Position numbers and translations under genes: made by a program. This document shows, piece by piece, positions 13,216 to 30,112 of a DNA stretch of 64,000 nucleotides. The notes beneath the pieces are model-generated. The model did not search any database. It was given only the letters and a program-made list of their open reading frames with translations, and was not told where the DNA came from. Within the stretch, counting starts at the first letter, position 1. The number at the start of each line of letters is the position of its first letter. Source of the stretch: Selenomonadaceae bacterium (GTDB lineage: Bacteria; Bacillota; Negativicutes; Selenomonadales; Selenomonadaceae); assembly GCA_017412925.1 (NCBI GenBank), contig JAFPVP010000095.1:9981-73980 (forward strand). Reading direction: 5' to 3'.

Positions 13216-13278
13216 CGGTAAAATTTATTCCACGCTCTTTGTCCACTTTTCAAAAGTGGCGGCGTCATCAGAATTTAA
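13197..13278. repeat. 19-nt direct repeat (CGGCGTCATCAGAATTTAA) duplicating the flhA 3' end, flanking a 44-bp segment with a 17-nt palindrome
   Basis: Copies at 13197-13215 (contains the flhA stop) and 13260-13278. Palindrome CCACTTTTCAAAAGTGG at 13243-13259. Confidence 0.8.
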
Positions 13279-13281
13279 ACC

Positions 13282-13322
13282 AAAAAAATTAACCTCCGCG
13301 CAACTTGCGGAGGTTTTTTTGT
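13282..13322. terminator. bidirectional intrinsic terminator shared by flhA (+) and RTX gene 1 (-)
   Basis: A7 run, stem CCTCCGC (13293-13299) / GCGGAGG (13307-13313), then a T9 run. Confidence 0.7.
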
Positions 13323-13337
13323 TACCGCTGATTTTTT

Positions 13338-16160
13338 TTACTGCTTAACAAGTTTTTCGTCGCTGACGGTGTAAGTTTCGCCGTTAATATTTATGTTTTC
13401 AAAGTATCCGCCGTCGAAAACGACTTTGCCGCCGCCCGAAATTGTAAGCGTGAGTTTGTTGTCGACAAATCCAGAATCACTGAACGTGCCGCCCTCCGAG
13501 CCGTCCTTATTGAGAATCTTCAACATGTCGCCGTCGCTTTCATAGTAATCCAAAATCGTATCGGTGCCTTCGCCTGGCTTATAAATGAAAATATCTGCGT
13601 CGCCGCCGCCGTCAAGATAATCATCGCCTGCGCCGCCCCAGAGAGTATCCTTGTCGTAACCACCAAAAATCCAATCAGCACCTGCGCCGCCCAATAAATA
13701 ATCATTTCCGGCGTGACCTTCCAGATAATCATCGCCTGCGCCGCCGTCGAGATAATCATTGTCATCTTGCCCCAAAAGCGTATCGTCGTTCGCGCCGCCG
13801 AATAAAGAATCTTTGCCGGCATCACCGCTGATTAAATCTGCGCCCGCGCCGCCGTTAATATAATCGTTGCCGTCGTCACCGTTAAGATAATCATCGCCCG
13901 CATTGCCGAGAAGGCTATCATTTCCTGCGCCGCCGCTTATCGTATCATTAGCTTTGCCGCCGCTTATGGAGTTTGCAAGCGTGTTGCCGGTAATTTCAAT
14001 GGCGGTCGTGCGTTTGGCGGCGTTGACAACTTTAACTTTAGAGCCGATAGTCAACGGAGATTCGGTTGCATTCGTTATTGCCAGCGTCGTAGTATTTGCG
14101 GGCGTTGCGGAATAAGTTTTGGTAGTTTCTTCGCCGTTCTCGTCAACGATTGTAATTTTCTTGCCCGTACCATTTTTAACGGTGAGCGTGCCGCTGCCAA
14201 CCGTAAAAACGACGTTTGAGCCGCTGATTGTTGATTTAGAAATCGCCGCGCTGAATTTAATTTTATCGCCCGCCGCATAGTCGCTGATAACGTCTTTGCC
14301 TGCCGTATAAACGAAAATATCTTTGCCGTCGCCGCCAGTGAGCGTGTCATTGCCTTTTCCGCCGTCCAAAACGTCTGCGCCGGCGTCACCCAAAAGTTTA
14401 TCGTTGCCCGCGTTGCCGAGAAGGGTATCATTGCCCGCCCCGCCGTGAATTATATCGTTTTTCGTGCCGCCGCTTATGGAATTTGCAAGAGTGTTGCCGA
14501 TAATTTCAATAGCTTTCGTGCGTTTGGTCGCGTTGACGACTTTTATCTTGGAGCCGATAGTCAGCGGCGATTCAGTCGAATTCGTAACGGTCAGCGTCGT
14601 TGATTCGGCGGAATAAGTTTTGGTAGTTTCTTCGCCGTTCTCGTCAACGATTGTAATTTTCTTGCCCTTGCCATTTTTAACGGTGAGCGTGCCGCTACCA
14701 ACCGTGAAAACGACGTTTGAGCCGCTGATTGTTGATTTAGAAATCGCCGCGCTGAATTTAATTTTATCTTCCGCCGAGTAGTCGCTGATAACGTCTTTTC
14801 CAGCCGTGTAAACGAAAATATCTTCGCCGTCGCCGCCAGTGAGCGTGTCATTGCCTTTTCCGCCGTTTAAAGTGTCGTTTCCTTTGCCGCCGTCGATTAA
14901 ATCGTTACCGGAGCCGCTTACGATTGAATTATTCTTGGCGTTGCCGATAATTGTAATGTCGTTCTTGAGTTTGGAGGCGTTGACGGTTTTAACGGTGCTT
15001 TCAAAGTCCGCCAAGTCGATTGTGTCGCCCTTAAATGCTGTCGAAGCCGTCAAGACCGTTTTATTTTTGTTATAACTTAGTCCTGCGGGTAGTTCGTCTT
15101 CATCGGGCAAGCCGTCCGAATAATTTTTGGCAAGATAGCGCAAAAATCCATAGCCAAGAGCTTGAGGATTCCCAGAATAACGAGAATCATCTTGGAATTC
15201 TGCTATGTCAAACAAGTAGCCGCCGCTGTCAAAGCCACCAACAATTTCACAAAGTCCGGCTCTAATTTCACTAGGAAGATTATAAGCGTAGCTAACATTA
15301 GATTTTATCGCCACTTCAGTTAGTGTTTGCAAAATGATTCTGTCGAGATAATTGCTGAAATATGTTGTATGGTCGGAGTAGTCTGTATGAGGAATATTTA
15401 ATTTTCCATAAGCACTTCCTGAAAAATTAATTCTACCATAAAAATTTGAGTAAATGGCTTTATTGCCTTCGAGCGTGCCGTTTTTGTCGTCGGCGGTCAT
15501 GTTATAAAGAATTCTAGGATTTATACACAACGTAACACTTGATGCGCGCCCCATATCATAACTAATGTTATTAATTGACGTTGCGTATGGATTATTATTA
15601 AAACCATCATCGAAGACAATGTTAATCTCGTTAATGGAGGCGCGACCGTCGGTAAAATTAATTCCGAGCGATTTATTGATAAGATCGAGTGATTCGGGAA
15701 TCCACCAATTATAAAGCGCACGAACGACAAGTTTTTGTTTCTCCAGATAAGTTTCGCCGCTGTAATTAAATTTTTCGCCGGCGTCAACGTCGCCTTTTTC
15801 GTTGTAAGTGATATTGACGGTCAATCCGTTCTTCGTGAAGGATTTGTACTGCGCGGCGGTGAGTTCTTTAGCTTTGGCGGTTTCCGGAACGATACTTTCG
15901 GCGGTTTTAGTAGTGGAGCCGCCCGCGTCCGAGCCGGTAATTGCGCCCGTGTCGGTGTTGTTTACGCGAATGCCGCATTTTTGCTCAAGAAAATCCTGCG
16001 TGCCCAAGCCGGACTTCGCTGCGTTGAATTTTTGCCTGAAAATGCCGTAACTGACTGCGCCGACGGATTTAAAAGCCTCATCAGCAGCGGCTTCGCCTTG
16101 CGCGGAAGTCTTTGTCAGTGTGTCGACAAATTTTTTGATAATGCCAACGGGTGTAGACAT
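13338..16160 (-). CDS. RTX-type calcium-binding repeat protein, paralog 1 (N-terminal ~370-aa non-RTX domain)
   Basis: 940 aa, AAGGAGA RBS, no Sec signal. Many GGxGxD nonapeptides ([24 protein letters not shown]...). Two ~167-aa internal repeats. The N-terminal domain is homologous to that of paralog 3. The C-terminal tail is related to the family tail and ends ...VSDEKLVKQ. Confidence 0.85.
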   Translation of the reverse strand: MSTPVGIIKKFVDTLTKTSAQGEAAADEAFKSVGAVSYGIFRQKFNAAKSGLGTQDFLEQKCGIRVNNTDTGAITGSDAGGSTTKTAESIVPETAKAKELTAAQYKSFTKNGLTVNITYNEKGDVDAGEKFNYSGETYLEKQKLVVRALYNWWIPESLDLINKSLGINFTDGRASINEINIVFDDGFNNNPYATSINNISYDMGRASSVTLCINPRILYNMTADDKNGTLEGNKAIYSNFYGRINFSGSAYGKLNIPHTDYSDHTTYFSNYLDRIILQTLTEVAIKSNVSYAYNLPSEIRAGLCEIVGGFDSGGYLFDIAEFQDDSRYSGNPQALGYGFLRYLAKNYSDGLPDEDELPAGLSYNKNKTVLTASTAFKGDTIDLADFESTVKTVNASKLKNDITIIGNAKNNSIVSGSGNDLIDGGKGNDTLNGGKGNDTLTGGDGEDIFVYTAGKDVISDYSAEDKIKFSAAISKSTISGSNVVFTVGSGTLTVKNGKGKKITIVDENGEETTKTYSAESTTLTVTNSTESPLTIGSKIKVVNATKRTKAIEIIGNTLANSISGGTKNDIIHGGAGNDTLLGNAGNDKLLGDAGADVLDGGKGNDTLTGGDGKDIFVYTAGKDVISDYAAGDKIKFSAAISKSTISGSNVVFTVGSGTLTVKNGTGKKITIVDENGEETTKTYSATPANTTTLAITNATESPLTIGSKVKVVNAAKRTTAIEITGNTLANSISGGKANDTISGGAGNDSLLGNAGDDYLNGDDGNDYINGGAGADLISGDAGKDSLFGGANDDTLLGQDDNDYLDGGAGDDYLEGHAGNDYLLGGAGADWIFGGYDKDTLWGGAGDDYLDGGGDADIFIYKPGEGTDTILDYYESDGDMLKILNKDGSEGGTFSDSGFVDNKLTLTISGGGKVVFDGGYFENININGETYTVSDEKLVKQ
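13960..14880. repeat. intragenic tandem duplication (two ~0.5-kb near-identical copies) inside RTX paralog 1
   Basis: Sequence blocks at about 13960-14375 and 14470-14880 align with an offset of 501-510 bp. For example GGAATAAGTTTTGGTAGTTTCTTCGCCGTTCTCGTCAACGATTGTAATTTTCTTGCCC occurs at 14109 and 14610. Confidence 0.85.
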
Positions 16161-16192
16161 AAAACCATCTCCTTAAACTTTTTACAAAAGTT

Positions 16193-16218
16193 ATTATACC
16201 TGTTTTTTTTTTTGACAA
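16193..16218 (-). promoter_or_regulatory. putative promoter of RTX paralog 1 with an A-run in the spacer
   Basis: Minus strand: TTGTCA (16218-16213), 14-nt spacer (A10 + CAGG), TATAAT (16198-16193). The spacer is sub-optimal as sequenced. Confidence 0.4.
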
Positions 16219-16241
16219 TTCCCCACCGCAAATTTTTTTGC

Positions 16242-16271
16242 AAAAAAAAATTTCCCGCCGCAATGACGGGA
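16242..16271 (-). terminator. intrinsic terminator of RTX paralog 2
   Basis: Minus strand: TCCCGTC-ATTGC-GGCGGGA hairpin followed by AAA and T9. Confidence 0.65.
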
Positions 16272-16294
16272 AAAAATTTTTTTCCGCGCAGATT

Positions 16295-19200
16295 TTATTG
16301 CTTTTTTAAAGTGGAGCCGCTGATTTTATACGTTTCGTCGTTTATGTGGAAAGTTTTGGCGGTGAAATCTTTAAGAGTGACGGAGCCGCCACTGACTTTG
16401 AAAGTAATCGTGCCTTTGGATTTATTGTAAGAGGTCGTGAAGTCCAATCCGTCAAGTGTCAACGTGTCCTTAGAATCGAAGCCGAAGATTATATCTTTGC
16501 CGTCGCCGCTGTTGTAAATGAAAATATCCGCGCCGGCGTCGCCCCAGAGCGAATCATTGCCCGCGCCGCCAATGAGCGTGTCATTTCCTGCGTCGCCGTA
16601 AAGTTTATCATTGCCCGCGTTGCCGATGATTGAATCGTTGCCCGCCGCGCCATAGATCGTATCGGCTTTCGTGCCGCCGCTAATTATATTGTCAAGCGCG
16701 TTGCCCGTGATTTTAATGCCCTTTTTGAGCGCGGAGGCGTCGATAATTTTTGTTGTCAAATCAACGGTTACGGGCGAGGAAGTTTTACTTGTTACAATCA
16801 AACGCTTTGTGCCCGTGATGTTGAGCTTGTCCGAGTCAGCCGCACCGACCAAAGTTATCTTGCCCTTGCCGACCGTGACGATAATATTTTTGTTACTTGT
16901 CGTTGTCGAATAATAATCGCCCGAAACTGCAAGCGTCGAGGTCTTGTCGAAACCGTAAATAATATCGTTGCCGTCGCCCGACTTGTAATTAATCAAATTG
17001 TTCGCGCTCTCAAGTGAGATGCGATCATTGCCTTTGCCGCCCGTTATCGTCGCCGCCGTGCCGAAGACGCTGATTGTATCGTTGCCCTTGCCGCCGTCGA
17101 TTAAATTGTTCGCGGAGTTTGAGTTGCCGTAAATATAATCGTTACCGTCGCCGCCGAGAATGGTCGCATATTCTGCGCGGCTGTAAACGGAATCATTTCC
17201 CGCGCCGCCGTTTATTGAAGTTTTCGCGCCGCTGTTGGTAATGTAATCATTTCCTTTGTTTGCGTTGATTTTTACGGAGCCGGTTGCGTTCTCAATGTAA
17301 TCATCTTTTGTCGTGCCCTTGACGAGGGAGGAGCCGTCCCGGTTGCGGATAATGTTCCAAGTTTTATTAACGTCACTTATCGACGAAACGACATTAACTT
17401 TTTCCGCTCCGTAATCCGTCAACGTCAACTTTTTATTGTTGCTGAGCTTGAGGGTAATTTTATCGTTTGAACGCGAGGTAGCTTTTACTTTGAGCGAGCC
17501 GAGGACGATTGTATCGATTGCGTCAAAGCCGTTGAGTGTGTCGTTGCCCGCGCTGTAGACATAAGCCGTGCCGATACCTTCCTGCTTTGCAACATAATCA
17601 TTGCCCGTGCCGCCCGCAATCGTGTTGTAATCGCCGTAAGAGAAGACAGAATCATTGCCAGCCCCGCCGACGATTGAGGAATTCGCGCCGTTGTTGGTAA
17701 TGGAGTCATTGCCTTTGCCGCCGTCAATCACAGATTTTAATCCGTTGCTCGTGACAGTATCGTTATCGTCGCCGCCTTTGATTGTAACTTTCGAGCCGGC
17801 ACTGTAAATATAATTTTTCCCTGCGCCGCTGTTGATTGAAACGTTGCTGCCCGTGTTGGTGATTGAGTCGTTGCCCGCGCCGCCGTTCAATGTCACGTTG
17901 GATTCGCTGTTTACAATGGAATCGTTACCTTTGCCCGCGCTTATATTGAGTTTCTTTAACTTCGCCGCGCCGACTAAAGTTATCTTCCCGTCGCCGACCG
18001 TGATAATTAAATCGTCGCCGCTCTTGCTCTGAATGTAGGTGCCTTTGCCGCCGTCGATTTGGAGCGTCGAGGTCGTGTTGAAACCTTGAATAATGTCGTT
18101 GCCGTCGCCCGTCGTGTACTTGAATAAAACTTTCGAGCCGCCATTAGTAATGTAATCGTTGCCCGTGCCGGCGGTGATTGTGACTTTGGAGCCGCTGTTA
18201 GAAATGGTATCGTCACCTGCGCCCGCAGTGATTGTTGCATTTTCACCGTCGTAAGAGTTGGAAATATAATCGTTGCCCGCGCCGCTGTCGAGTTTTGCCT
18301 TTGTGCCCTCGTTGACGATTGAGTCGTTGCCGTCGCCGACGAGGATTTTTGCGCCGCTTCCCTTGTTATCAACAGAATCATTGCCCGCCCCGCCGACGAT
18401 TGAGACGTTCGCGCCGCTGTTAGTAATGTGGTCATCGTCTGCGCCGCCGTTTATCGTAACTTTTTGAGCGTCTTTGTTGATGATTATATCTTTACCTGCG
18501 CCGCCGTCAATTAAAGCTGTTGCGCCGCTGTTGCTGATTGAATCGTTGTCTGCCCCGCCGTTGATTGTCGAACTTGCGCCGCTGTTGCTAACGGTATCAT
18601 TGCCCGCGCCGCCATTGATTAAAACTTTCGAGCCGCTGTTGATAATTTTATCGTCGCCGTCGCCCGCGTCGAGTGTCGAATTCGTGCCGCTGTTTTTAAT
18701 TGAGTCGTTGCCCGCGCCGCTGACGATTGAGACGTTCGCGCCGCTGTTGCTAATTGTATCTTTGCCCGTGCCGCCGATAATGCTAACTTTTTTGCCGCCA
18801 GCGTTCGTGATTAAATTATCTCCGTTGCCGCCGTCAAGTGTCGAAGTCGCGCCGCTGTTGATTATGGTGTCGTTGTCGTCGCCGCCGCTGATTGAAACTT
18901 TGATGCCGCTGTTGCTGATTGAATCATTTCCGCCGCTACCGCTGATTGAGACGTTATCCGCATCGTTGAGCACGGTATCATTGCCCGCGCCGCCGACGAT
19001 TGTTTCTTGCGAGGAGTTGTTCTGGACATAATCGCCGTTATCGCTCAAATACGTTACGACCCTTTTGAATATCCCGTTAATGCTCACGGAAGGCAAAGAC
19101 GCCGCGCCGAGCAGAGTTATCTTGCTGTCGCCGACCGTTACGAAGATGTCATTACCGCTCGTCCGCCTAGCATAAGTGCCGGTGCCGTCGCCGATTACAA

Positions 19201-20473
19201 GGATTGCGCTTTCGTTAAAGCCTTCGATAGTGTCGTTACCGTCGCCCGTCGTATACTTGAACAGAACTTTTTCGCCGTCGTAGTTGCGAATGTAATCATC
19301 ACCTGCGCCGCTTTCGATTGTAGCTCTTTCATTCCATTGGTTAATGATTGTATCATTGCCCGCGCCGCCGACGATTGACGAGCTGTCGCCGCCGTAGCCG
19401 TTGTCAATGTAATCATCACCCGCGCCCGAATTAATTGTAGCTTTAGAACCGCCGTTGCTGATTGAGTCGTTGCCTGCGCCGCCATTGATTGACATGTTCG
19501 AGCCGGCGTCATGAGTACCTCCGTCGTAAAAGCCATTTTCGATCGTGTCGTTGCCGTCCCCGCCGTCGACTATAGAGTTATCGCCGCTGTGGTAAATTAA
19601 ATCATTACCCGCGCCGCCATTTATTGAAACTTGCGAGCCTTCGTTATAGATATAATCGTTACCGTCGCTGGCGTTGATTGAAACGTTTTCGCCGCCGTCG
19701 TTGCGAATGGAATCGTCGCCCGCGCCACCGTCGATTGTAACTTTTGAGCCGCCGCTGTTTTTAATGGAATCATTGCCCGCACCGCTAACGATTGACGAGT
19801 TTTCGCCTTCGTTTTCAATAGTGTCTGCGCCGTCGCCGCCAAGGAGCGTCGCAAAGTCGCTTTCGTATCTGTTAAATATGTAGTCATTGCCGTCGCCACT
19901 ATCGACTAAGCTGTTCTTGCCTTCGTTCCAAATGGAATCATTGCCCGCACCGCTGACGATTGACGAGTTTTCGCCGCCGTTTTCAATGGTATCGTTGCCT
20001 TCGCCGCCGTCGATTAAGCTGTTCTCGCCTTCCCAGCGGTTGTAAATGTAATCATCGCCCGCGCCCGCCTCGATTGAAACGTTCGAGCCGGCGTCGTAAG
20101 AGTAAGCGTCGTAGGAGCCGTTTTTAATCGTGTCGTCACCGTCGCCTCCGACGAGCAGAGCATAGTCGCCCTTCTCGTTTTCAATGTTGTCGTTGTCCGC
20201 GCCGCCGTAAATTTGAACATAAGCCGCCTCATCATTCCAGAAGGAGCCGTTGCCGCGCATAATCCTGTTGTCGCCCGAAATGATAATGTCGTCGCCTTCT
20301 TCAGGGTTGCCGTCCTCGTCGTAGTTGATCGTGTATCCGATGACGAGTTCCTTGTAATTGAAATTGCTTGGCGCGTAATAACGCTCAGTTGTCGAGTCAT
20401 TGAAAGTCTTTGTGCCCGTCGTGAATTCATAAGTAGCCGAGAACCTTTGGAGATTAAACGTGAACACCTTCAT
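16295..20473 (-). CDS. giant RTX-like calcium-binding repeat protein, paralog 2
   Basis: 1392 aa from ATG 20473 (AAGGAGAGG RBS 6 nt upstream; the ORF-track start at 20521 has none). Long arrays of ~19-aa units of the type xVSI(N/D)GGAGND(S/T/Y)IxNxGxx. Three GDGND-I-x-GF...ITL(V/L)GAA modules. Family C-terminal tail ...TFHINDETYKISGSTLKKQ. No Sec signal. Confidence 0.85.
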   Translation of the reverse strand: MKVFTFNLQRFSATYEFTTGTKTFNDSTTERYYAPSNFNYKELVIGYTINYDEDGNPEEGDDIIISGDNRIMRGNGSFWNDEAAYVQIYGGADNDNIENEKGDYALLVGGDGDDTIKNGSYDAYSYDAGSNVSIEAGAGDDYIYNRWEGENSLIDGGEGNDTIENGGENSSIVSGAGNDSIWNEGKNSLVDSGDGNDYIFNRYESDFATLLGGDGADTIENEGENSSIVSGAGNDSIKNSGGSKVTIDGGAGDDSIRNDGGENVSINASDGNDYIYNEGSQVSINGGAGNDLIYHSGDNSIVDGGDGNDTIENGFYDGGTHDAGSNMSINGGAGNDSISNGGSKATINSGAGDDYIDNGYGGDSSSIVGGAGNDTIINQWNERATIESGAGDDYIRNYDGEKVLFKYTTGDGNDTIEGFNESAILVIGDGTGTYARRTSGNDIFVTVGDSKITLLGAASLPSVSINGIFKRVVTYLSDNGDYVQNNSSQETIVGGAGNDTVLNDADNVSISGSGGNDSISNSGIKVSISGGDDNDTIINSGATSTLDGGNGDNLITNAGGKKVSIIGGTGKDTISNSGANVSIVSGAGNDSIKNSGTNSTLDAGDGDDKIINSGSKVLINGGAGNDTVSNSGASSTINGGADNDSISNSGATALIDGGAGKDIIINKDAQKVTINGGADDDHITNSGANVSIVGGAGNDSVDNKGSGAKILVGDGNDSIVNEGTKAKLDSGAGNDYISNSYDGENATITAGAGDDTISNSGSKVTITAGTGNDYITNGGSKVLFKYTTGDGNDIIQGFNTTSTLQIDGGKGTYIQSKSGDDLIITVGDGKITLVGAAKLKKLNISAGKGNDSIVNSESNVTLNGGAGNDSITNTGSNVSINSGAGKNYIYSAGSKVTIKGGDDNDTVTSNGLKSVIDGGKGNDSITNNGANSSIVGGAGNDSVFSYGDYNTIAGGTGNDYVAKQEGIGTAYVYSAGNDTLNGFDAIDTIVLGSLKVKATSRSNDKITLKLSNNKKLTLTDYGAEKVNVVSSISDVNKTWNIIRNRDGSSLVKGTTKDDYIENATGSVKINANKGNDYITNSGAKTSINGGAGNDSVYSRAEYATILGGDGNDYIYGNSNSANNLIDGGKGNDTISVFGTAATITGGKGNDRISLESANNLINYKSGDGNDIIYGFDKTSTLAVSGDYYSTTTSNKNIIVTVGKGKITLVGAADSDKLNITGTKRLIVTSKTSSPVTVDLTTKIIDASALKKGIKITGNALDNIISGGTKADTIYGAAGNDSIIGNAGNDKLYGDAGNDTLIGGAGNDSLWGDAGADIFIYNSGDGKDIIFGFDSKDTLTLDGLDFTTSYNKSKGTITFKVSGGSVTLKDFTAKTFHINDETYKISGSTLKKQ

Positions 20474-20519
20474 AAAAATCCTCTCCTTATACAAAAATTT
20501 TTTGGGGTGTTTTATATGC

Positions 20520-20549
20520 ATTATAGTAATTGTTTTTTTTTTTTGTCAA
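20520..20549 (-). promoter_or_regulatory. putative strong sigma70 promoter of RTX paralog 2 with an A-run in the spacer
   Basis: Minus strand: TTGACA (20549-20544), 18-nt spacer (A11 + CAATTAC), TATAAT (20525-20520). Confidence 0.55.
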
Positions 20550-20573
20550 TTCCCTACCGCAAATTTTTTTCGC

Positions 20574-20601
20574 AAAAAAAAATTCCCGCCTTTCGACGGG
20601 A
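20574..20601 (-). terminator. intrinsic terminator of RTX paralog 3
   Basis: Minus strand: TCCCG-TCGAAAGG-CGGGA hairpin followed by a T-run (A9 on the + strand at 20574-20582). Confidence 0.55.
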
Positions 20602-20620
20602 AAAAATTTCCGCGCAGATT

Positions 20621-22636
20621 TTATTGCTTAACGAGCTTTGAACCGCTGATTTTATACGTGTCGTCGTTTATGTTGAAAGTTTTGGCGGTAAAATCTTTCA
20701 GCGTTAAAGTTCCGTCTTCAAATTTAAACGTGACGGCAGAATTTTTATAAGTCGCCGTGAAATCAAGAGAATCAAGCGTCAAAGTGTCCTTTGCGTCGAA
20801 GCCGAAGATAATATCTTTGCCGGTGCCCGCCGAGTAAATGAAAACGTCCGCGCCGGCGTCGCCCCAGAGTGAATCATTGCCCGCGCCGCCGATAAGCGTA
20901 TCATTTCCCGCGCCGCCTTTGAGCGTGTCGCTACCAAGTCCGCCGTAAAGTTTATCGTTGCCCTTGTTGCCGATAATCGAATCGTTTCCGCCCTCGCCGT
21001 AAATTATATCGTTCTTGCTACCGCCCAAAATCACGTTGTCGAGCTTGTTGCCGACGATTTTAACCGCCGACGTGCGTTTAGAGGCGTCCGCCGTTCCAAT
21101 ATCCGCCGAAAGTGTCACGGGTGAAGTTGTTTTGTTATTAATCGTCAAAGTCGTCGCGCCGCTGACAACCGTCGTGTATTCCTTGCCTTTGGAATTAATC
21201 ATGCTGAGTTTTTTATCCGCGCCGTTTTTAACAGTCAACGTGCCCTTGCCGATAGTGAAGACGACATCGGAGCCGCTTAAAGTCGCCTTTGAAATCGCCG
21301 AGCCGACGGAAATTTTATCGCCCGCCGAATAATCGCTGATAACGTCCTTGCCCGCCGTGTAAATGAAAATATCGTTGCCTGCGCCGCCTTTTAACGTGTC
21401 ATTGCCCTTTCCGCCGTTCAAAGTGTCGTTTCCTTTGCCGCCGAGCAAATAATCGTTGCCCGCGCCGCTGATAATTGAATTTTCAAGCGCGTTGCCCGTG
21501 ATTTTTATATTTTTCTTGAGCGCGGAGGCTTTAACGTGCTTAACGGTGCTTTCAAAGTCCGCCAAATCCAGCGTGTCTTCCGTGTAGTCCGCCGTGACAG
21601 TCAAAACCGTTTTCTTTGCATTATAAGAGACGCCGTCGGGCACGCCGTCCGAATAATTTTTTGCGAGATAACGAAGACGAGTATACCCTGTAACTGAATT
21701 ATTGTTGTCCCTGTTGACAAAATCGCCATAGTTTTGCGAGGCGTCATCATAACCGCCGACGATTGCGCAAAGTCCCTCAAAAACATCTTTTGGCAAGTCT
21801 TCGAGATAGGCGATATTGGACTTCAAAGCAATTTCTGTAAAAGCCATTAAAAATAATCTGTCCAGATAGTTGGTAAATGGCGCAGTGTTGCCGTAACCTG
21901 TTGTCACATAAGGATAAGCCGTGCGATTGTAATATTGTTTACTGTCTAACGTTCCGTTTTTGTCGTTTTCGGTTAAATTATTGAGCAAATTGGCGTTGAG
22001 TATAATTTTAGCCTTGGAAAGGCGTCCCAAATCGTATTCAAAGTATATTGACATCGCGGTATGAATATTCATCGGATTCCAGTAGTCAAATTCTATGTCG
22101 ACTTCTTTGAGATTAGATGAATCGTCTGTAAAATTTATTCCGAGTGATTCGTTAATCAAGTCGACGGATTCGGGAATCCACCAATTATAAAGCGCACGAG
22201 TGACGAGTTTTTGTTTCGCGAGGAAATTTGCGCCGCTGTAGCCGAAATTTTCTCCGGCATCGACATCACTTTTCTCGACGTAGCTTATATTGAATTTTAA
22301 ACCGTTTTTCGTGAAGGAGTTGTATTGTGAGTTGGTGAGTTTTGTAGCCTTTGCGCTTTCGGGAACGATAGATTCGGCAGTTTTGGTAGTTTTACCACCG
22401 GCATCCGAACCTGTTATCGCACCTGTATCGGTATTAGTAATGCGAACGCCGCAATTTTGTTCGGCAAAATTTTGAGAAGCAACACCATAAGACGCATTGG
22501 TATATTTCTCTCTAAACACGTCATAACTGATTGCGCCCACAGCTTTAAAAGCCTCATCGGCAGCTTCTTCGCCGGTTTTTTTTGTTTCCACGAGAGTCTT
22601 GACGAATTTTTTGATAACTCCAACGGGTGTTGACAT
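20621..22636 (-). CDS. RTX-type calcium-binding repeat protein, paralog 3 (same N-terminal domain as paralog 1)
   Basis: 671 aa, AAGGAGA RBS. The N-terminus MSTPVGVIKKFV...NTDTGAITGSDAGG...ALYNWWIPESVDLINESLGINFTD aligns with paralog 1. RTX nonapeptides present. Family tail ...[19 protein letters not shown]. Confidence 0.85.
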   Translation of the reverse strand: MSTPVGVIKKFVKTLVETKKTGEEAADEAFKAVGAISYDVFREKYTNASYGVASQNFAEQNCGVRITNTDTGAITGSDAGGKTTKTAESIVPESAKATKLTNSQYNSFTKNGLKFNISYVEKSDVDAGENFGYSGANFLAKQKLVTRALYNWWIPESVDLINESLGINFTDDSSNLKEVDIEFDYWNPMNIHTAMSIYFEYDLGRLSKAKIILNANLLNNLTENDKNGTLDSKQYYNRTAYPYVTTGYGNTAPFTNYLDRLFLMAFTEIALKSNIAYLEDLPKDVFEGLCAIVGGYDDASQNYGDFVNRDNNNSVTGYTRLRYLAKNYSDGVPDGVSYNAKKTVLTVTADYTEDTLDLADFESTVKHVKASALKKNIKITGNALENSIISGAGNDYLLGGKGNDTLNGGKGNDTLKGGAGNDIFIYTAGKDVISDYSAGDKISVGSAISKATLSGSDVVFTIGKGTLTVKNGADKKLSMINSKGKEYTTVVSGATTLTINNKTTSPVTLSADIGTADASKRTSAVKIVGNKLDNVILGGSKNDIIYGEGGNDSIIGNKGNDKLYGGLGSDTLKGGAGNDTLIGGAGNDSLWGDAGADVFIYSAGTGKDIIFGFDAKDTLTLDSLDFTATYKNSAVTFKFEDGTLTLKDFTAKTFNINDDTYKISGSKLVKQ

Positions 22637-22764
22637 ACAAATCTCATCTCCTTAAAGGTTTCTCCAATGATATTACTAAAAATAACTTAATGAAAGAAAC
22701 CATAGGTAATACTTTTTGAACATTATACAGGTCGGAAAAAATTTTTGGTGTCCTGCCGGGACAC

Positions 22765-22791
22765 AAAAAAATCCCGCCGCTTTGACGGGAT
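22765..22791 (-). terminator. intrinsic terminator of RTX paralog 4
   Basis: Minus strand: ATCCCGTC-AAAGC-GGCGGGAT followed by T7. A second hairpin, GTGTCC-CGGCA-GGACAC, follows at 22748-22764. Confidence 0.65.
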
Positions 22792-22811
22792 TAAAAGTTT
22801 CAGTGCAGATT

Positions 22812-24755
22812 TTATTGTTTTTTGAAGCTTGAGCCGCTGATTTTATACGTTTCGTCGTTAATGTTAAAGGTTGTGGCTGTAAAATTCTTCAAAGTGATTG
22901 AACCGCTGCCAACCGTCAACGTAACAGCTCCATTTTTGTAAGCGGGCGTGAAATCGTCCATAATTTGTAAGAAATCGTCGTTGTCAAAGCCGAAAATAAC
23001 ATCTTTGCCGTCGCCGGTCATGTAAACAAAAGTATCTGCGCCCGCGTCGCCCCAAAGACTGTCATTTCCTTTGCCGCCCCAAATATTATCGTCGCCGTCG
23101 CCGCCGTAAATCTTATCGTTGCCAGCATTGCCGAGCAAATAATCATTTCCGCCCGCGCCGCGAATTGTATCGCCCTTCGAGCCGCCGTTTATCGTGTTTG
23201 CGATGTCGTTGCCGATAATTTCAACGGCGGTTTTGCGTTTCGAGGCATTTATAACTTTAATCGTGCTCCCCGCCGTGATTGGCGACTTTATATCGTCGGT
23301 TATGCTCAAAGTCGTGCCTCCAACAACCGTAACATAAGATTCTCCGTCAGAATCAGTCATTTTGAGCGTTTTTCCTTTGCCATCTTTGATAGTTAGGGTG
23401 CCTTTGCCGACTGTGAAGACAACATTAGAGCTTTTTACCGCAGATTTGGAGATTTCCGCGCCTAAAGCAATCGTATCGCCCGTTTCGTAGTCGGTGATCG
23501 TATCTTTTCCGCCCGTGTAGAAGAAAATATCGTTGCCCGCACCGCCCGTGAGCGTGTCATTGCCCGTTCCGCCCGCAAGTGAATCGTTTCCAGCACCGCC
23601 GAGGAGTTTATCATTGCCTTTTCCGCCGCTTAAAGTATCATTTCCAGCATCTCCCGCGAGTGAATCGTTGCCTGACTCGCCGAAAAGTTTATCGTTGCCC
23701 TTGCCGCCGCGAATTGTATCGTTATTTGAGCCGCCGTTTATCGTGTTTGCGATGTTATTGCCGATTATTTGAATTGGAGTCGTGCGTTTCGTGGCATTTA
23801 TAACTTTTATCTCGTTTCCTGCCGTCACGGGCGATTTTGTCTTGTCATTTACGGTCAATTCGGTCTCTCCGCTGACAATCGTATCATATTCCTTGCCAGA
23901 CGAATTAATAATGCTCAATTTCTTGCCTTTGCCGTCTTTAACAGTCAAATTTCCATTGCCAATAGTAAAAATAACGTCCGAACCGCTTAAATTTGCCTTT
24001 GAAATCGCCGCGGAGAGCTTAATTTTGTCTTCGCCCGCCGAATAATCGCTGATAACGTCCTTTCCACCCGTATAAATGAAAATATCGTTGCCTGCGCCGC
24101 CTGTAAGTGAATCATTTCCAGCTCCGCCGGTCAGACTGTCGTTGCCTTTGCCGCCTTTAATCAAATCATTGCCGCTACCGCCGATTAAGTAATCATTGCC
24201 GCTGCCGCCGACGATTGAATTATTCAGCGCGTTGCCCGTGATTTTTATAGCTTTGGTACGTGAGGAAGCGTCGATTTTTTCAATATCGGAGTCGACAGTT
24301 ATTTTTGAAGGGTCTGCATTAGTAATTTTCAAAAAATACGGCGTATCCCATTCGCAAATGAAATAATCGCCGCTGAAGAAGTACCTGTCATTCCATTTAT
24401 CTATGAACTTTCCATTTCTGGGAACAATACATGCATAATTTTCTGCTCCACGTTCACCATGATTATTTGGCTCACCACTTGCCCAATTTGTGTATGTTAC
24501 GGCTTCGCCCGTTACCCAAGTCCAATTTCCTTCATGTTCGGCATCGCTAAATCCAATGTAATATATCTTGTCTTCATTTCGACTGAAAAGATAGCTAACG
24601 ATTGCATTATTCTCTTCAGAATCATTGATAACAGCGAGGTGCCCGCCAAGAGATTCGCAATAAGCTTCTGCCGCTTCCCAAGTATCGGCTACATTCGAGT
24701 AGACATAATATTTGTGTCCGTCGTAAACGAAGGCGTCGGAAGGAATTTTATTCAT
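22812..24755 (-). CDS. C-type-lectin-domain / RTX calcium-binding repeat fusion protein, paralog 4
   Basis: 647 aa. The N-terminal ~135 aa has CTLD hallmarks (WEAAEAYCESLGGHLAVINDSEEN...WTW..G....YTNWASGEPNN...ENYACI...WNDRYF...FICEW). The rest is RTX repeats plus modules shared with paralogs 1 and 3. Family tail ...TFNINDETYKISGSSFKKQ. Confidence 0.85.
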   Translation of the reverse strand: MNKIPSDAFVYDGHKYYVYSNVADTWEAAEAYCESLGGHLAVINDSEENNAIVSYLFSRNEDKIYYIGFSDAEHEGNWTWVTGEAVTYTNWASGEPNNHGERGAENYACIVPRNGKFIDKWNDRYFFSGDYFICEWDTPYFLKITNADPSKITVDSDIEKIDASSRTKAIKITGNALNNSIVGGSGNDYLIGGSGNDLIKGGKGNDSLTGGAGNDSLTGGAGNDIFIYTGGKDVISDYSAGEDKIKLSAAISKANLSGSDVIFTIGNGNLTVKDGKGKKLSIINSSGKEYDTIVSGETELTVNDKTKSPVTAGNEIKVINATKRTTPIQIIGNNIANTINGGSNNDTIRGGKGNDKLFGESGNDSLAGDAGNDTLSGGKGNDKLLGGAGNDSLAGGTGNDTLTGGAGNDIFFYTGGKDTITDYETGDTIALGAEISKSAVKSSNVVFTVGKGTLTIKDGKGKTLKMTDSDGESYVTVVGGTTLSITDDIKSPITAGSTIKVINASKRKTAVEIIGNDIANTINGGSKGDTIRGAGGNDYLLGNAGNDKIYGGDGDDNIWGGKGNDSLWGDAGADTFVYMTGDGKDVIFGFDNDDFLQIMDDFTPAYKNGAVTLTVGSGSITLKNFTATTFNINDETYKISGSSFKKQ

Positions 24756-24807
24756 AAAATCATCTCCTCTTCAAAATATTGTTATTGTTATTACTAAACT
24801 CAGCCAT

Positions 24808-24868
24808 AAAATAGCCTCCTCACTAAAAATAAACGATATCGACAGAAATTTTTGCCGTGCAGACCTCC
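24808..24868 (-). promoter_or_regulatory. conserved 5' leader, copy 1 (upstream of the lectin-RTX gene)
   Basis: About 60 nt, nearly identical to 30010-30072. Minus strand: GGAGGTCTGCACGGCAAAAATTTCTGTCGATATCGTTTATTTTTAGTGAGGAGGCTATTTT-ATG. Confidence 0.6.
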
Positions 24869-24908
24869 TTTTTTACTAAAGAACAAAGAAAACAATACTT
24901 TCCCGCTT

Positions 24909-24939
24909 ATTATCCCCCCCCCCAATGCCCCGTTGTCAA
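24909..24939 (-). promoter_or_regulatory. putative promoter of the lectin-RTX gene with a G-run in the spacer
   Basis: Minus strand: TTGACA (24939-24934), 19-nt spacer (ACGGGGCATT + G9), GATAAT (24914-24909). The C10 run on the + strand is at 24914-24923. Confidence 0.45.
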
Positions 24940-24989
24940 GACTTTTTATAAAAAATTTTAAAAAAAACATGCGCGGCACTTAAAATAAT

Positions 24990-25023
24990 AAAAAAAAGCG
25001 GCTCCGCCATGTGACGAAGCCGT
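24990..25023 (-). terminator. intrinsic terminator of RTX paralog 5
   Basis: Minus strand: CGGCTTCG-TCACATGG-CGGAGCCG (one mismatch) followed by T8. Confidence 0.6.
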
Positions 25024-25046
25024 TATTTTTGTGTTTAAGCAGATTT

Positions 25047-27014
25047 TTATTGCTTAACGAGCTTTGAACCGCTGATTTTATACGTGTCGCTGTTAATGTG
25101 GAAGGTCGTAGCGGTAAATTCTTTAAGAGTGACCGAACCACCGCTAACTTTGAACGTAATCGCGTCATTTTTACTGTTGTAAGACGCCGTGAAGGCTAAA
25201 TTATCAAAAGTGAGCGTGTCTCCGTCTTCAAAACCGTAAATTATATCCTTGCCGTCGCCTTTCGCGTAGTAAAAATTATCTTTTCCGTCGTCGCCCCATA
25301 AACTGTCATTTCCTGCGCCACCCCACAACGAATCTCTGCCCGTGCCGCCTTTTATGCAGTCATTTCCTACGCCGCCGAGTAAAATATCGCCGTCTGCGCC
25401 GCCGTCGAGCGTGTCATTGCCTTTTCCGCCAACTAAACTGTCGTTTCCAGCCTCGCCAAGCAATTTATCATTGCCATCGCTGCCGTCAATCGTATCATTG
25501 CCCGCTCCTCCGAGCAAATTATCATTTCCTTTGCCGCCGTTAATCGTATCGTTGCCTTTGTCGCCGTTTAAGCTGTCATTTCCCGCGCCGCCGACTAATG
25601 TATCGTCATCATCGCCGCCAGAAATCGTATCGTCGCCATTTCCGCCAACTAAACTGTCATAACCCTTGTCTCCGAGTAAAATATCGTCGTCATCGCCGCC
25701 GGAAAGCGTATCGTCGCCTTGTCCGCCGCTTAAACTGTCATTTCCCTCGTCGCCAATCAAAATATCGTCGCCAGTGTAGCCTGAAAGCGTGTCATTGCCT
25801 TCGCCGCCGTTTAAACTGTCATTTCCTGCGCCGCCAAGCAAAATATCGTTATCATCGCCGCCGTCTAGCGTATCATTGCCCGCTCCGCCGTTTAAACTGT
25901 CGTGATTCGTGCCGCCGAGCAAAATATCATTGCCCGCGCCGCCGGAAAGCGTATCTTTTCCGTCTCCGCCGTACAAACTATCGTTTCCGCCGTTTCCGAA
26001 CAGTTTATCGTTGCCAATTCCGCCCCAAAGCGTATCTTTAGCCTTGCCGCCGACTATAGAATTGTTTTGCTCGTTGCCTTTTATCTTGATTGCCTTCGTT
26101 CGAGCCGTTCCGTCGATTGTTACGATGTCCGAATTGACCGTTACGACAGATTTATCCGAGTTCGTGACGATTTTAAGCGCAGTTTCTGCTTTTTTGCTGA
26201 CAATGTTGACCTTCGACAAGTCAGCCGCGCCGATTAAAGTAATTTTTCCGTCTCCAACAGTGATAATAACATCATTACCGCTCTTAGTCGTTGATAAATT
26301 CGCACCAGAAATGCTAAGAGTCGAAGTTTCGTTAAAACCTTCGATTGAATCGTTGCCGTCGCCATTTTTATAGGTAAGTAAAGCCTCTCTGCCGTTTCCG
26401 TACAAAATAATTTGGTCGTCGCCCTTGCCGCCAGTGATAGTTGCTTTATTCGCTCCGTTTTTAATGACATCAGCACCGTTTCCGCCGTCGAGTGTCATAC
26501 AAGATGCCCAGCCGTTTGAAATTGTATCCGCTCCATCGCCGCCGTAAATCGCTGTCAGCGAGCTGTAACTGTAATAATTGACAATTAAATCGTAACTCGC
26601 GCCGCCGTATATCGTTACTTCCGCGCCTTGATTAGAAATAGTGTCTGCGCCGTCGCCGCCGTCAATTTTGCAGCGATAACCGTAGTTTGAAATGTTATCT
26701 TCGCCTTCGCCGCCATAAATTGAAGTTAGCGAGGCGGAACTTTGGTAGTTGTAGAGATAATCTTTTCCCGATTCGCCGTCAATTATAGTTTTTGCAGCGT
26801 AGTTTAAGATTTTATCTGCGCCGTCGCCGCCATAAACCGCACTAATCGAGCCGTTACTGTCGTTGCAAAGGAAATCATCGCCGGATTTGCCATTTATCGT
26901 TACTTTCACGCCGCCAGAACAATCAATACTCAACCAATCGCCATTAAAAATTGAATCATCGCTGTTTGTGCCGGCAAGCAATGTATTCGAGGCGGTATTT
27001 TCTATCGTCGCCAT
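25047..27014 (-). CDS. RTX-type calcium-binding repeat protein, paralog 5
   Basis: 655 aa, AAGGAGG RBS. N-terminus [20 protein letters not shown]. Dense GGxGNDxL / GGDDDD repeats. The C-terminal half is near-identical to paralog 6. Tail ...[19 protein letters not shown]. Confidence 0.85.
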
Positions 27015-27031
27015 GAATTTAGCCTCCTTAT

Positions 27032-27057
27032 AAAAAAATCCCGCCGATTTGACGGGA
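27032..27057 (-). terminator. intrinsic terminator (possibly leaky) between RTX paralogs 6 and 5
   Basis: Minus strand: TCCCGTC-AAATC-GGCGGGA followed by T7. It is followed at once by the RBS of paralog 5, with no separate promoter visible. Confidence 0.6.
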
Positions 27058-27079
27058 AAAAAAGTTTCAGTGCAGATTT

Positions 27080-28798: not shown

Positions 28799-28830
28799 AA
28801 AACTACCTCCTAAATAAAAATCTTTAAAAA

Positions 28831-29415
28831 TTATCTGTAACCCCACTTGAAAATATATTTTAGCGGTATTTTTAAGCCTTCGAGAGTTTTAACCGGCACT
28901 TCATGCTTAATTTCGGCTTTTTCCTCGTCCGTCAGCAACTCCAATTCTTTATCGTCGAAGAGAATATATTCATCATCAAGATAATATTTGCCTTCATGCA
29001 GAAAATAAACGCTAATTACCTTCATGTACGGGTCGATAATCCAATATTCGCTAACGCCTTGAGCCTCATAAATGTCTTTTTTAATAGTGAGGTCATTTTT
29101 GCGCGTAGATTTCGATAAAACTTCGACGATCATATCAGGAACTCCATAAATTCCTCTGAACCAGTCGATAATCGACGAATTTTTTTCCGTAACGACTGAC
29201 AAATCGGGCTTTAAAGTTGTACCGTCTGGAAAATGAACGTCGGTATTGTCAGAAAACACGTATCCGCTATCGTTTTCGTCCAAAAAGCTCCCGATAATCA
29301 TTCCTAGACGCATAATTACTCCACCGTGAGTGGGATTCGGTGCAGGTGCCATAATTTTTTTACCTCTGATGATTTCATAGGACGGATAAAGAAGTCGTTC
29401 ATTGATAACCTCCAT
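28831..29415 (-). CDS. Uma2-family (DUF820, PD-(D/E)XK) putative endonuclease
   Basis: ...PDLSVV...[39 protein letters not shown]... is the Uma2 core pattern. ATG 29415 preferred, with an AGGAAG RBS. Confidence 0.8.
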
Positions 29416-29427
29416 AAAAACCACTTC

Positions 29428-30009: not shown

Positions 30010-30072
30010 AAAATCACCTCCTTAACTAAAAATCAACCGACATCGACAGAAATTTTTGCCATTCACACCTCC
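30010..30072 (-). promoter_or_regulatory. conserved 5' leader, copy 2 (upstream of the Uma2-Uma2-RTX operon)
   Basis: Minus strand: GGAGGTGTGAATGGCAAAAATTTCTGTCGATGTCGGTTGATTTTTAGTTAAGGAGGTGATTTT-ATG. Aligns with 24808-24868 through the start codon. Confidence 0.6.
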
Positions 30073-30112
30073 TCCGCGCCGAAAAACCAATGGAAACGAG
30101 ATTTTCACAACG

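What the first reader, a model, noticed from the sequence alone, without database searches (positions are those of the whole stretch)
20526..20549. A12 homopolymer in the spacer of a near-consensus promoter (TTGACA-N18-TATAAT) of the giant RTX paralog 2
Seen: the minus strand reads AGGGAATTGACA-A11-CAATTAC-TATAAT. TTGACA is at 20549-20544, TATAAT at 20525-20520, and the + strand T12 run at 20533-20544. About 60 bp, from the upstream terminator through the -35, is conserved with the paralog 1 intergenic region (GCAAAAAAATTTGCGGT(G/A)GGGAATTG(T/A)CA), but the two tracts and spacers differ in length (18 vs 14 nt).

Inference: two copies of one promoter module are fixed in different spacer states. 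That is what independent slippage-driven switching of family members would produce.
Basis: partly seen in the sequence, partly recalled or inferred. Interest (0 to 1): 0.65.

Follow-up and report, generated by a model that had tools for sequence, protein, structure and literature searches.

The report
Conserved poly-A-spaced RTX gene promoter
The run of 12 A's sits inside a real, strongly conserved promoter used by a family of secreted calcium-binding (RTX) protein genes in uncultured rumen bacteria related to Quinella, but it behaves as a mostly fixed spacer that changes length only slowly, not as the fast on/off switch proposed, whereas a neighbouring poly-G promoter does vary between near-identical strains.

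Summary
On the minus strand, TTGACA (20549-20544), A12 (20544-20533), CAATTAC and TATAAT (20525-20520) form a 12/12 consensus promoter with an 18-nt spacer. It lies 47 nt upstream of the 1392-aa RTX gene.

The switching interpretation is only partly supported.
- The A12 tract is identical in 6 near-clonal assemblies (99.1-100% identity). The paralog's A11 is identical in 6 assemblies, one from a 98% strain.
- In the same assemblies, a G tract in the neighbouring promoter (24923-24914) reads 8, 9, 9, 10 and 10.
- The core AA-TTGACA-A11-CAAYTAY-TATAAT recurs upstream of RTX genes in many rumen Selenomonadaceae. Of 28 distinct copies, 16 have exactly A12 and 19 have an 18-nt spacer. Three of those keep 18 nt despite a different or interrupted run.
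- Length variants do exist: runs of 8, 10, 11, 13 and 15. One ortholog pair with 97.8% protein identity has A13 versus A8, so slippage-type change happens on longer timescales.

Best reading: a conserved family promoter whose homopolymer sets the spacing. It is slowly tunable and has not been shown to be phase-variable.

The parts
20574..20602 (-). Intrinsic terminator of the upstream 671-aa RTX gene: hairpin 20602-20583 (TTCCCGTC-GAAA-GGCGGGAA) followed by T9 (20582-20574).
   Evidence: Terminator scan and sequence. It implies that the 1392-aa gene needs its own promoter.
20550..20573 (-). A/T-rich block plus GC-rich linker (GCGAAAAAAATTTGCGGTAGGGAA) just upstream of the -35. Possible UP-element-like region. 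The AA directly before TTGACA is nearly invariant in the family.
   Evidence: Information content is 1.0-1.4 bits at -19 to -15 and 1.8-2.0 bits at -2/-1 relative to the -35, across 26 modules. The UP-element role is inferred.
20544..20549 (-). -35 hexamer TTGACA
   Evidence: It is invariant in 27 of 28 family modules.
20533..20544 (-). A12 homopolymer (T12 on the + strand). Its first A is the last base of the -35.
   Evidence: Identical length in 6 near-clonal assemblies. 16 of 28 distinct family modules have exactly A12.
20526..20532 (-). Non-repeat part of the spacer, CAATTAC (family consensus CAAYTAY).
   Evidence: Information content is 0.9-2.0 bits per position across 28 modules.
20520..20525 (-). 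-10 hexamer TATAAT, 18 nt from the -35.
20471..20488 (-). RBS AAGGAGAGG (20488-20480) and start codon ATG (20473-20471) of the 1392-aa gene.
   Evidence: The gene is called from this start in public assemblies (1392 aa).
16295..20473 (-).
   Evidence: Pfam PF00353, translation. Homologs are only 30-45% identical, in Quinella/Selenomonadaceae MAGs.
16193..16218 (-). Degenerate copy of the module: TTGTCA (16218-16213), A11 (16213-16203), CAGG, TATAAT (16198-16193), spacer 14. It lies upstream of the 940-aa RTX gene 13338-16160.
   Evidence: A11 is invariant in 6 assemblies, including the 98% strain L222.
24909..24939 (-). Neighbouring promoter of a second class: TTGACA (24939-24934), acggggcatt, G10 (24923-24914), GATAAT (24914-24909). 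It lies upstream of the lectin-RTX gene 22812-24755. This is the tract that actually varies.
   Evidence: G8/G9/G9/G10/G10 in near-clonal assemblies. It is the only indel in 14 kb between L001/L003 and the window.

Best explanation
The A12 run is the spacer of a conserved housekeeping-sigma (sigma-70/SigA-type) promoter cassette, AA-TTGACA-A11-CAAYTAY-TATAAT. Rumen Selenomonadaceae related to Quinella place this cassette in front of many genes for RTX calcium-binding secreted or surface proteins.

In the window it follows the terminator of the 671-aa gene and drives the 1392-aa gene as its own transcription unit. Run length sets the -35/-10 distance, and selection holds that distance at 18 nt (modal A12).

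The run does change length by slippage or small indels. On the evidence available this happens on the timescale of strain and paralog divergence. It produces promoters with 14-, 15-, 16-, 19- or 20-nt spacers that are predicted to be weak or silent. It is not seen as rapid reversible switching within a lineage.

The window's second copy (TTGTCA-N14-TATAAT) is such a decayed variant. Most of its shortening lies outside the run. In this gene cluster the hypermutable element is the poly-G spacer of the neighbouring promoter at 24923-24914.

Shown: the anatomy, the conservation, the length distribution, invariance in near-clonal samples, and poly-G variation. Inferred: that the cassette is an active promoter, that 18 nt is the expressed state, and that other lengths reduce expression.
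For: Anatomy:
- 12/12 consensus hexamers with an 18-nt spacer, placed between a terminator and an RBS/ATG.

Family-wide conservation:
- 28 distinct modules upstream of RTX genes were found in many species (GTDB MAGs and metagenome contigs).
- The -35, the -10, the AA before the -35 and the last 7 spacer bases are conserved, while flanks are near random.
- 16 of 28 have a pure A12 and 19 of 28 have an 18-nt spacer.
- Three modules keep 18 nt despite a different or interrupted run: L059 (A10 + 9 nt), L067 (A15 + 4 nt) and L175 (A6-G-A5). This points to selection on spacing.

Orthologous checks:
- At the CodY-RTX-MscL locus, this organism and Quinella sp. 3Q1 (L217; L008 identical) both have A12. 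Their proteins are 94-95% identical, the flanks have diverged and the adjacent T run differs (T11 vs T8).
- The A12 at 20533 is invariant in 6 assemblies of 99.07-100% identity.
- A11 is invariant in 6 assemblies, including a 98% strain with substitutions in the flank.
- The CodY-locus A12 and T11 are invariant in 5 assemblies.

Contrast with poly-G:
- The G tract takes three lengths in the same assemblies and is the only indel in 14 kb between L001/L003 and the window.
- Non-modal observations are 3 of 5 for G versus 0 of 22 for the four A/T tracts (Fisher p=0.003). The samples are not independent.

Slow length change:
- Runs of 8, 10, 12 and 13 occur next to an identical CAATTAT-TATAAT.
- L073 has A13 and L219 has A8 at 97.8% protein identity; L220 has A12 at 84%.
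Against: - Only consensus assemblies were available, so minority length variants within populations would be invisible.
- The near-clonal set is small (5-6 samples, several from one study) and not independent.
- The G-class promoter also shows a conserved modal spacer (19 nt in 5 of 5 other species) yet varies among near-clonal samples. Conservation of a modal length therefore does not by itself exclude phase variation.
- A long pure homopolymer maintained across species, rather than any 18-nt sequence, could be selected for mutability.
- ORFs behind 14-nt-spacer promoters are intact (940/1108 aa in the window lineage, 907 aa in L219). That fits reversible silencing, or expression by other means.
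- 18 nt is one longer than the canonical 17-nt optimum, so the 'on' assignment is uncertain.
- There is no transcription data.
Confidence: 0.6

Rival explanations
1. True contingency locus. The A tract slips at high frequency, and each RTX paralog switches independently between expressed (A12, 18 nt) and silent lengths. Assemblies show A12 because the expressed state dominates in the rumen populations sampled.
For: - A homopolymer of 12 lies in a promoter spacer of a multigene family of secreted or surface proteins.
- The same architecture is repeated family-wide.
- Length variants differ only in the run, including A13 vs A8 in close orthologs.
- Intact ORFs sit behind off-length promoters.
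- A neighbouring promoter of the same cluster demonstrably varies.
Against: - There are zero length differences at four long A/T tracts in 22 observations from near-clonal assemblies that do differ at the G tract.
- Several paralogs within single MAGs all carry A12 (L010 and L014; L013 and L018), rather than a mix of states.
- A12 is retained between species at the CodY locus.
- The observed differences are -2, -4 and -5 nt, not the +/-1 steps typical of fast switching.
Confidence: 0.2
2. The A run plus CAAYTAY is a sequence- or shape-specific element: a rigid or bent A-tract, or the binding site of a regulator or nucleoid protein acting inside the spacer. It is conserved for that reason. Length variants are simply broken promoters, and length plays no regulatory role.
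For: - Spacer sequence, not only length, is conserved (0.9-2.0 bits over CAAYTAY, and a pure A run in 26 of 28 modules).
- The modal spacer is 18, not the optimal 17, as in promoters that need a factor to realign the hexamers.
- The G-class promoter likewise has a supra-optimal modal 19.
Against: - No dyad symmetry is conserved in the spacer. The AATTG...CAATT repeat is lost in the 8 modules with CAACTAT or TAACTAT.
- No candidate regulator was identified.
- L067 (A15 + CTAT), L059 and L175 (interrupted run) tolerate changed spacer sequence as long as 18 nt is kept.
Confidence: 0.15
3. Chance resemblance or non-functional relic. The run is a by-product of duplication of the intergenic region, and the hexamers are fortuitous.
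For: The stop-codon-to-tract segment was clearly duplicated together with the conserved 3' end of the upstream gene (85% identity).
Against: - About 0.009 runs of 12 or more are expected by chance.
- The match is 12/12 to consensus.
- The same core is conserved upstream of non-orthologous RTX genes in many species, while the flanks are randomised.
Confidence: 0.03

Closest known systems
Mycoplasma hyorhinis vlp promoters (poly-A tract in the promoter region of every vlp gene)
   Same: Both are multigene families of variable surface or secreted proteins in which each gene has its own highly similar promoter containing a homopolymeric A tract, so tract length changes would alter transcription (PMC10502178). 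That the vlp tract lies between the -35 and -10 with a single 'on' length is from my own knowledge of Citti and Wise 1995; I could not read the original.
   Different: vlp tracts switch at high frequency within clonal populations, and paralogs in one genome carry mixed lengths. Here the tract is invariant in near-clonal samples and mostly uniform (A12) among paralogs and species. The host is a diderm Firmicute of the rumen and the proteins are RTX, not lipoproteins.
Neisseria meningitidis nspA promoter poly-A (5A/6A)
   Same: An A tract upstream of the -10 whose length sets transcript level. The length differs between strains, but no phase variation could be detected experimentally (PMC6389960). 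It is therefore a fixed, lineage-level tuning polymorphism, which is the behaviour the data here suggest.
   Different: The nspA tract is much shorter (5-6 A), sits at a single gene rather than a family cassette, and its expression effect has been measured. Here the effect is only inferred.
Helicobacter pylori sabA promoter T-tract 'rheostat'
   Same: A homopolymeric A/T tract next to the -35 whose length variation among strains modulates promoter output gradually rather than on/off (PMC4081817, title and abstract).
   Different: As I recall, the sabA tract lies upstream of or adjacent to the -35, not between the hexamers, and changes the phasing of upstream elements. Here the tract is the spacer itself.
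Poly-G/C promoter-spacer phase variation in Neisseria (porA, opc)
   Same: A homopolymer between the -35 and -10 alters spacing and expression. It is the closest analogue of the neighbouring G10 promoter at 24923-24914, which does vary (17, 18 or 19 nt).
   Different: The finding's tract is poly-A and did not vary. The organisms and proteins are unrelated.

Membership tests
Sigma-70/SigA-type promoter | -35 TTGACA-like and -10 TATAAT-like hexamers separated by 16-18 nt | tested here: met
   12/12 match with an 18-nt spacer.
Sigma-70/SigA-type promoter | Position between an upstream terminator and the RBS/start of a gene | tested here: met
   The terminator is at 20602-20574. The -10 ends 47 nt before ATG 20473.
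Sigma-70/SigA-type promoter | Hexamers conserved in homologous upstream regions while flanks drift | tested here: met
   28 modules were compared. TTGACA is present in 27 of 28 and a TATAAT-like -10 in all, while flanks carry about 0-1 bit.
Sigma-70/SigA-type promoter | Mapped transcription start and activity | not testable with these tools
   No transcript data are available.
Simple-sequence-repeat contingency locus (transcriptional phase variation) | Repeat tract located where a length change alters expression (promoter spacer) | tested here: met
   The A12 lies entirely within the -35/-10 spacer.
Simple-sequence-repeat contingency locus (transcriptional phase variation) | Tract length differs among clonal or near-clonal isolates (hypermutability) | tested here: not met
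   A12 is 12 in 6 of 6 assemblies at 99.07-100% identity. A11 is 11 in 6 of 6. The CodY-locus A12 and T11 are invariant in 5 of 5. The positive control in the same assemblies, the G tract, reads 8/9/9/10/10. These are consensus sequences only.
Simple-sequence-repeat contingency locus (transcriptional phase variation) | Tract length polymorphic among strains or orthologs of the species group | tested here: met
   Runs of 8, 10, 11, 12, 13 and 15 occur among 28 modules. L073 has A13 vs L219 A8 at 97.8% protein identity. However, 16 of 28 modules are exactly A12.
Simple-sequence-repeat contingency locus (transcriptional phase variation) | Reversible, high-frequency on/off change of expression | not testable with these tools
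   This needs cultures, single-cell work or read-level data. The organism is uncultured.
RTX (repeats-in-toxin) calcium-binding protein family (the regulated genes) | GGxGxD nonapeptide repeats | tested here: met
   PF00353 hits in all six tandem genes, E from 1e-20 to 3e-80.
RTX (repeats-in-toxin) calcium-binding protein family (the regulated genes) | Uncleaved C-terminal secretion signal and a dedicated type I secretion system | not tested
   A conserved C-terminal domain of about 100 aa is shared by five of the six paralogs and by 247 loci in Selenomonadaceae genomes. No secretion genes were looked for.

The most novel reading that the evidence does not exclude
Quinella-like rumen bacteria control a large RTX surface or secreted protein repertoire with two families of homopolymer-spaced promoter cassettes. 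One is a poly-G class that switches fast. The other is a poly-A class that switches slowly, or at low frequency hidden below assembly consensus. Together they would form a two-speed contingency system for combinatorial expression in a commensal, perhaps as a defence against phages, protozoa or host antibodies. Under this reading the A12 tract is a genuine, reversible, low-rate switch whose expressed length is kept by selection.
Probability: 0.2. Interest if true: 0.6.

Novelty: new member of a known kind. Interest (0 to 1): 0.4.

Why it matters
Homopolymer tracts in promoter spacers are a classic route to phase or strength variation in host-adapted pathogens. They have hardly been looked at in uncultured gut or rumen commensals.

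This work defines a recognisable promoter cassette for an abundant RTX gene family in Quinella-like Selenomonadaceae. The Quinella genome paper does not mention RTX proteins or phase variation.

It also gives a natural side-by-side comparison. In the same gene cluster a poly-A spacer is stable in near-clonal populations while a poly-G spacer is not. That is a caution against calling every promoter homopolymer a switch. It also identifies which tract to follow, the G tract at 24923-24914, if one wants to study phase variation in these bacteria from metagenomic reads.

Tried and rejected
- Exact-pattern scans for the 23-24-nt upstream module found nothing in the species-representative genomes or the JGI metagenomes. 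This lineage is not represented there, so strain comparison relied on protein-anchored look-ups.
- The homolog search with the 1392-aa protein returned only 30-45% identical, repeat-driven hits. The exact A12 locus has no ortholog outside the near-clonal lineage.
- Orthologs of the upstream 671-aa gene (90%, 79% and 77% identity; L208-L211) use a different promoter and are not followed by the 1392-aa gene. They could not extend the tract comparison.
Most hits were unrelated AT-rich promoters. Only about 10 were family modules, so its length distribution is incomplete.
- The look-up with the FliY-like protein failed, probably because of a start-codon mismatch.
- The Rfam scan of 12500-31500 found no RNA family.
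- I considered and rejected three alternatives. A + strand terminator role for T12 fails because no GC-rich hairpin precedes it. The 5-bp inverted repeat AATTG/CAATT as a conserved operator fails because it is lost in the CAACTAT variants. A flagellar sigma-28 promoter fails because this module has no GCCGATAA.
- The original vlp papers could not be read.

Full report
**Observation**

On the minus strand the sequence reads GGGAA-TTGACA-A11-CAATTAC-TATAAT-G. TTGACA is at 20549-20544. The A run is at 20544-20533, which is 12 A counting the last base of the -35 and T12 on the + strand. TATAAT is at 20525-20520 and the spacer is 18 nt. The consensus scan ranks it as the only 12/12 site in 13000-29000.

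The site lies between an intrinsic terminator (hairpin 20602-20583 plus T9) that ends the 671-aa gene and the RBS AAGGAGAGG/ATG 20473 of a 1392-aa gene. The mechanical ORF start at 20521 is an artefact of the ATG inside TATAATG. Public assemblies also call the gene as 1392 aa.

All six tandem genes from 28846 to 13338 on the minus strand carry RTX nonapeptide repeats (PF00353). Five of the six share a conserved C-terminal domain of about 100 aa.

From the stop codon through the -35 the two intergenic regions are 85% identical. After the run they are 56% identical.

The two runs are the longest A/T homopolymers in the window, and about 0.009 runs of this length are expected by chance. Of the 4-nt spacer difference, only 1 nt is in the run (A11 vs A10 after the hexamer). 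The other 3 nt are in the non-repeat part (CAATTAC vs CAGG), and the shorter copy also has a mutated -35.

**Whose genome**

Homologs of the RTX proteins come almost only from rumen Selenomonadaceae MAGs, including Quinella sp. 1Q5, 1Q7 and 3Q1. A paralog of this organism at a CodY-RTX-MscL locus is 94% identical and syntenic with Quinella sp. 3Q1, GCA_015206825.1. The window is therefore from an uncultured Quinella-like diderm Firmicute. A TTGACA/TATAAT promoter model is appropriate for such an organism; this rests on established knowledge of Firmicute SigA promoters.

**Test 1: does the tract vary among near-identical strains?**

Protein-anchored look-ups recovered the locus from five independent metagenome assemblies (L001-L007, L221). 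They are 99.07-100% identical to the window over 9-14 kb.
- The A12 is 12 in all six sequences.
- The A11 is 11 in all six sequences that reach it. One of these is L222 (GCA_018396375.1), a 98% strain whose flank next to the -35 carries substitutions.
- A further A12 promoter of the same organism at the CodY locus, and the T11 terminator tail beside it, are unchanged in five assemblies.
- In the same assemblies, the poly-G run in the spacer of the neighbouring promoter reads 8, 9, 9, 10 and 10. That promoter is TTGACA 24939-24934, G10 24923-24914, GATAAT 24914-24909, upstream of the lectin-RTX gene.
- That run is the only indel in 14 kb between L001/L003 and the window.

Counting non-modal observations gives 3 of 5 for G against 0 of 22 for the four long A/T runs (Fisher p = 0.003). 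The samples are not independent and this is consensus data only. The same assemblies do reveal a hypermutable tract when one is present.

**Test 2: what happens across species and paralogs?**

I used an alignment of the family's C-terminal domain to fetch 80 loci from species-representative genomes. I added a gapped DNA pattern scan of metagenomes and further look-ups. Together these gave 28 distinct copies of one promoter core upstream of RTX genes: AA-TTGACA-A(n)-CAAYTAY-TATAAT.
- The hexamers, the AA before the -35 and the last seven spacer bases are conserved at 0.9-2.0 bits.
- Sequence 5' and 3' of the core is close to random, apart from an A/T block about 15-19 nt upstream of the -35 and an AAAAATTTTT-like stretch before the RBS.
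- Sixteen of 28 copies have a pure A12 and 19 of 28 have an 18-nt spacer.
- Three copies reach 18 nt by another route: L059 (A10 + 9 nt), L067 (A15 + 4 nt) and L175 (A6-G-A5 + GCATTAT). L175 is otherwise identical in its flanks to L193, which has A12.
- That compensation is the signature of selection on spacing.
- Paralogs in one MAG share A12 (L010 and L014; L013 and L018).
- The CodY-locus ortholog keeps A12 between this organism and Quinella sp. 3Q1, even though the flanks, the neighbouring T run (11 vs 8) and one spacer base have changed.

The remaining nine copies have 14-, 15-, 16-, 19- or 20-nt spacers. In six of them the only difference from the modal form is the run length: A8 in L096, L114 and L219; A10 in L111; A13 in L073 and L079. 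L073 (A13) and L219 (A8) precede proteins that are 97.8% identical, and L220 (84%) has A12. The run does therefore expand and contract, and such changes become fixed between strains.

**Interpretation**

The best-supported reading is a conserved SigA-type promoter cassette for the RTX family in which the homopolymer is the length-setting part of the spacer. The 18-nt state is maintained by selection and is most likely the expressed one.

Established promoter biology says activity falls steeply outside 16-18 nt. The 14-, 15- and 20-nt variants are therefore predicted to be weak or silent. This is inferred, not shown. Length change occurs by slippage or small indels, but at a rate not detectable among near-clonal populations. 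That behaviour resembles the nspA poly-A of N. meningitidis more than the vlp switch of M. hyorhinis. In nspA, 5A and 6A alleles set expression level and differ between strains, yet phase variation could not be detected (PMC6389960). In vlp, the promoter A tract of every family member flips at high frequency (PMC10502178).

The window's 14-nt copy is not the other state of a switch. It differs mainly outside the run, has TTGTCA, and is stable in a 98% strain.

**Caveats**
- Assemblies hide minority alleles.
- The G-class promoter also has a conserved modal spacer (19 nt in 5 of 5 other species, with run length compensated by adjacent bases) and still varies. A conserved mode alone therefore does not exclude switching.
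- Purity of the A run across species could itself be selected for mutability or for DNA shape.
- ORFs behind off-length promoters are intact.
- 18 nt (and 19 nt for the G class) is longer than the textbook optimum. This could mean altered helical geometry of homopolymer DNA or a factor acting on the spacer. I could not test either.
- I give 0.6 to the conserved, slowly tunable promoter, 0.2 to genuine phase variation, 0.15 to a structural or regulator element with no role for length, and 0.03 to chance.

**Comparison with known systems and novelty**

Homopolymers in or beside promoter spacers that tune or switch transcription are well known: vlp poly-A, nspA poly-A, the sabA T-tract rheostat (PMC4081817), and the Neisseria porA/opc poly-G/C tracts (from my own knowledge). 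This is a new member of that kind in a new setting, an RTX gene family of uncultured rumen Negativicutes. It has an unusually well conserved cassette.

The Quinella genome paper has no mention of RTX, calcium-binding proteins, S-layer, type I secretion or phase variation. Membership in the strict class of phase-variable contingency loci is not established. The location criterion is met and polymorphism among strains is met. Hypermutability in near-clonal samples was tested and not met. Reversibility and expression effects are untestable here.

**Verdict**

The sequence feature is real and functional-looking, and the phase-variation reading is overstated for this tract. Interest is moderate (0.4). 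The most useful outcomes are the definition of the family promoter cassette and the redirection of attention to the poly-G spacer at 24923-24914, which is the element that actually varies.

Noticed in passing
window 24909-24939 (minus strand); C10 on + at 24914-24923: A second promoter class sits upstream of the lectin-RTX gene (22812-24755): TTGACA-acggggcatt-G10-ATAAT. The G run reads 8, 9, 9, 10 and 10 in near-clonal assemblies, giving spacers of 17-19 nt. It is the only indel in 14 kb between L001/L003 and the window. Homologous promoters in five other species all have a 19-nt spacer with runs of 9-11. One copy (L070:2974) has T10 in place of the G run.
   Followed up: partly
window 5760-5768 (+), ORF 5163-5813: A G9 run lies inside a 216-aa ORF with a weak NTP_transf_5 nucleotidyltransferase match. 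With G8 or G11 the reading frame would continue to the stop codon now at 6046-6048, so this is a candidate translational frameshift switch. It is G9 in the window, L221 and L222. The insert of about 1.6 kb that carries it (about 5148-6720, between the FliY-like gene and a response-regulator gene) is absent from strain L223.
   Followed up: partly
window 13338-16160 (minus): The 940-aa RTX gene varies in size among near-identical strains: 940, 1096, 1108 and 1109 aa in L001, L222, L002 and L003. This fits copy-number change of its internal 501-bp direct repeat (14127-14426 vs 14628-14927, 85% identical).
   Followed up: partly
window 22748-22764 (minus) and L208-L211, L063, L012-L014, L096, L218: The palindrome GTGTCC-N5-GGACAC followed by CAAAAATTTTTT lies just upstream of the TATAAT of the 671-aa gene. 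It is conserved in that gene's orthologs, and also in long leaders downstream of some poly-A-class promoters. It may be an operator or an RNA hairpin.
   Followed up: no
window about 24834-24856 and about 30038-30060 (minus); also L070: A leader motif GGCAAAAATTTCTGTCGATRTCG...TTTTTAG is repeated upstream of the lectin-RTX gene and upstream of the first Uma2 gene. In the first case it is followed by a 15-codon mini-ORF, MAEFSNNNNNILKRR, that overlaps the RBS. No Rfam family matches.
   Followed up: partly
window 28831-30009 (minus): Two tandem Uma2-family (PF05685, putative restriction endonuclease-like) genes sit at the head of the RTX gene array. The first RTX gene's start overlaps the end of the second Uma2 gene.
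   Followed up: no
28 poly-A promoter modules in L008-L220 and the window: Run lengths favour even numbers: 12 in 16 modules, 8 in 4 and 10 in 3, against 13 in 2, 11 in 1, 15 in 1 and 9 in none; the 28th module (L175) has an interrupted run. Three independent copies share the A8, 14-nt-spacer state. This is unexplained and may be sampling.
   Followed up: no
L010 and L012, about 35-45 nt upstream of the poly-A module: A GCCGATAA motif, like the -10 of flagellar sigma-28 promoters, precedes the poly-A-class promoter in some species. The RTX arrays often adjoin flagellar genes: flhA in the window and flagellin genes in L209. This hints at a link between some family members and the flagellar regulon.
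   Followed up: no
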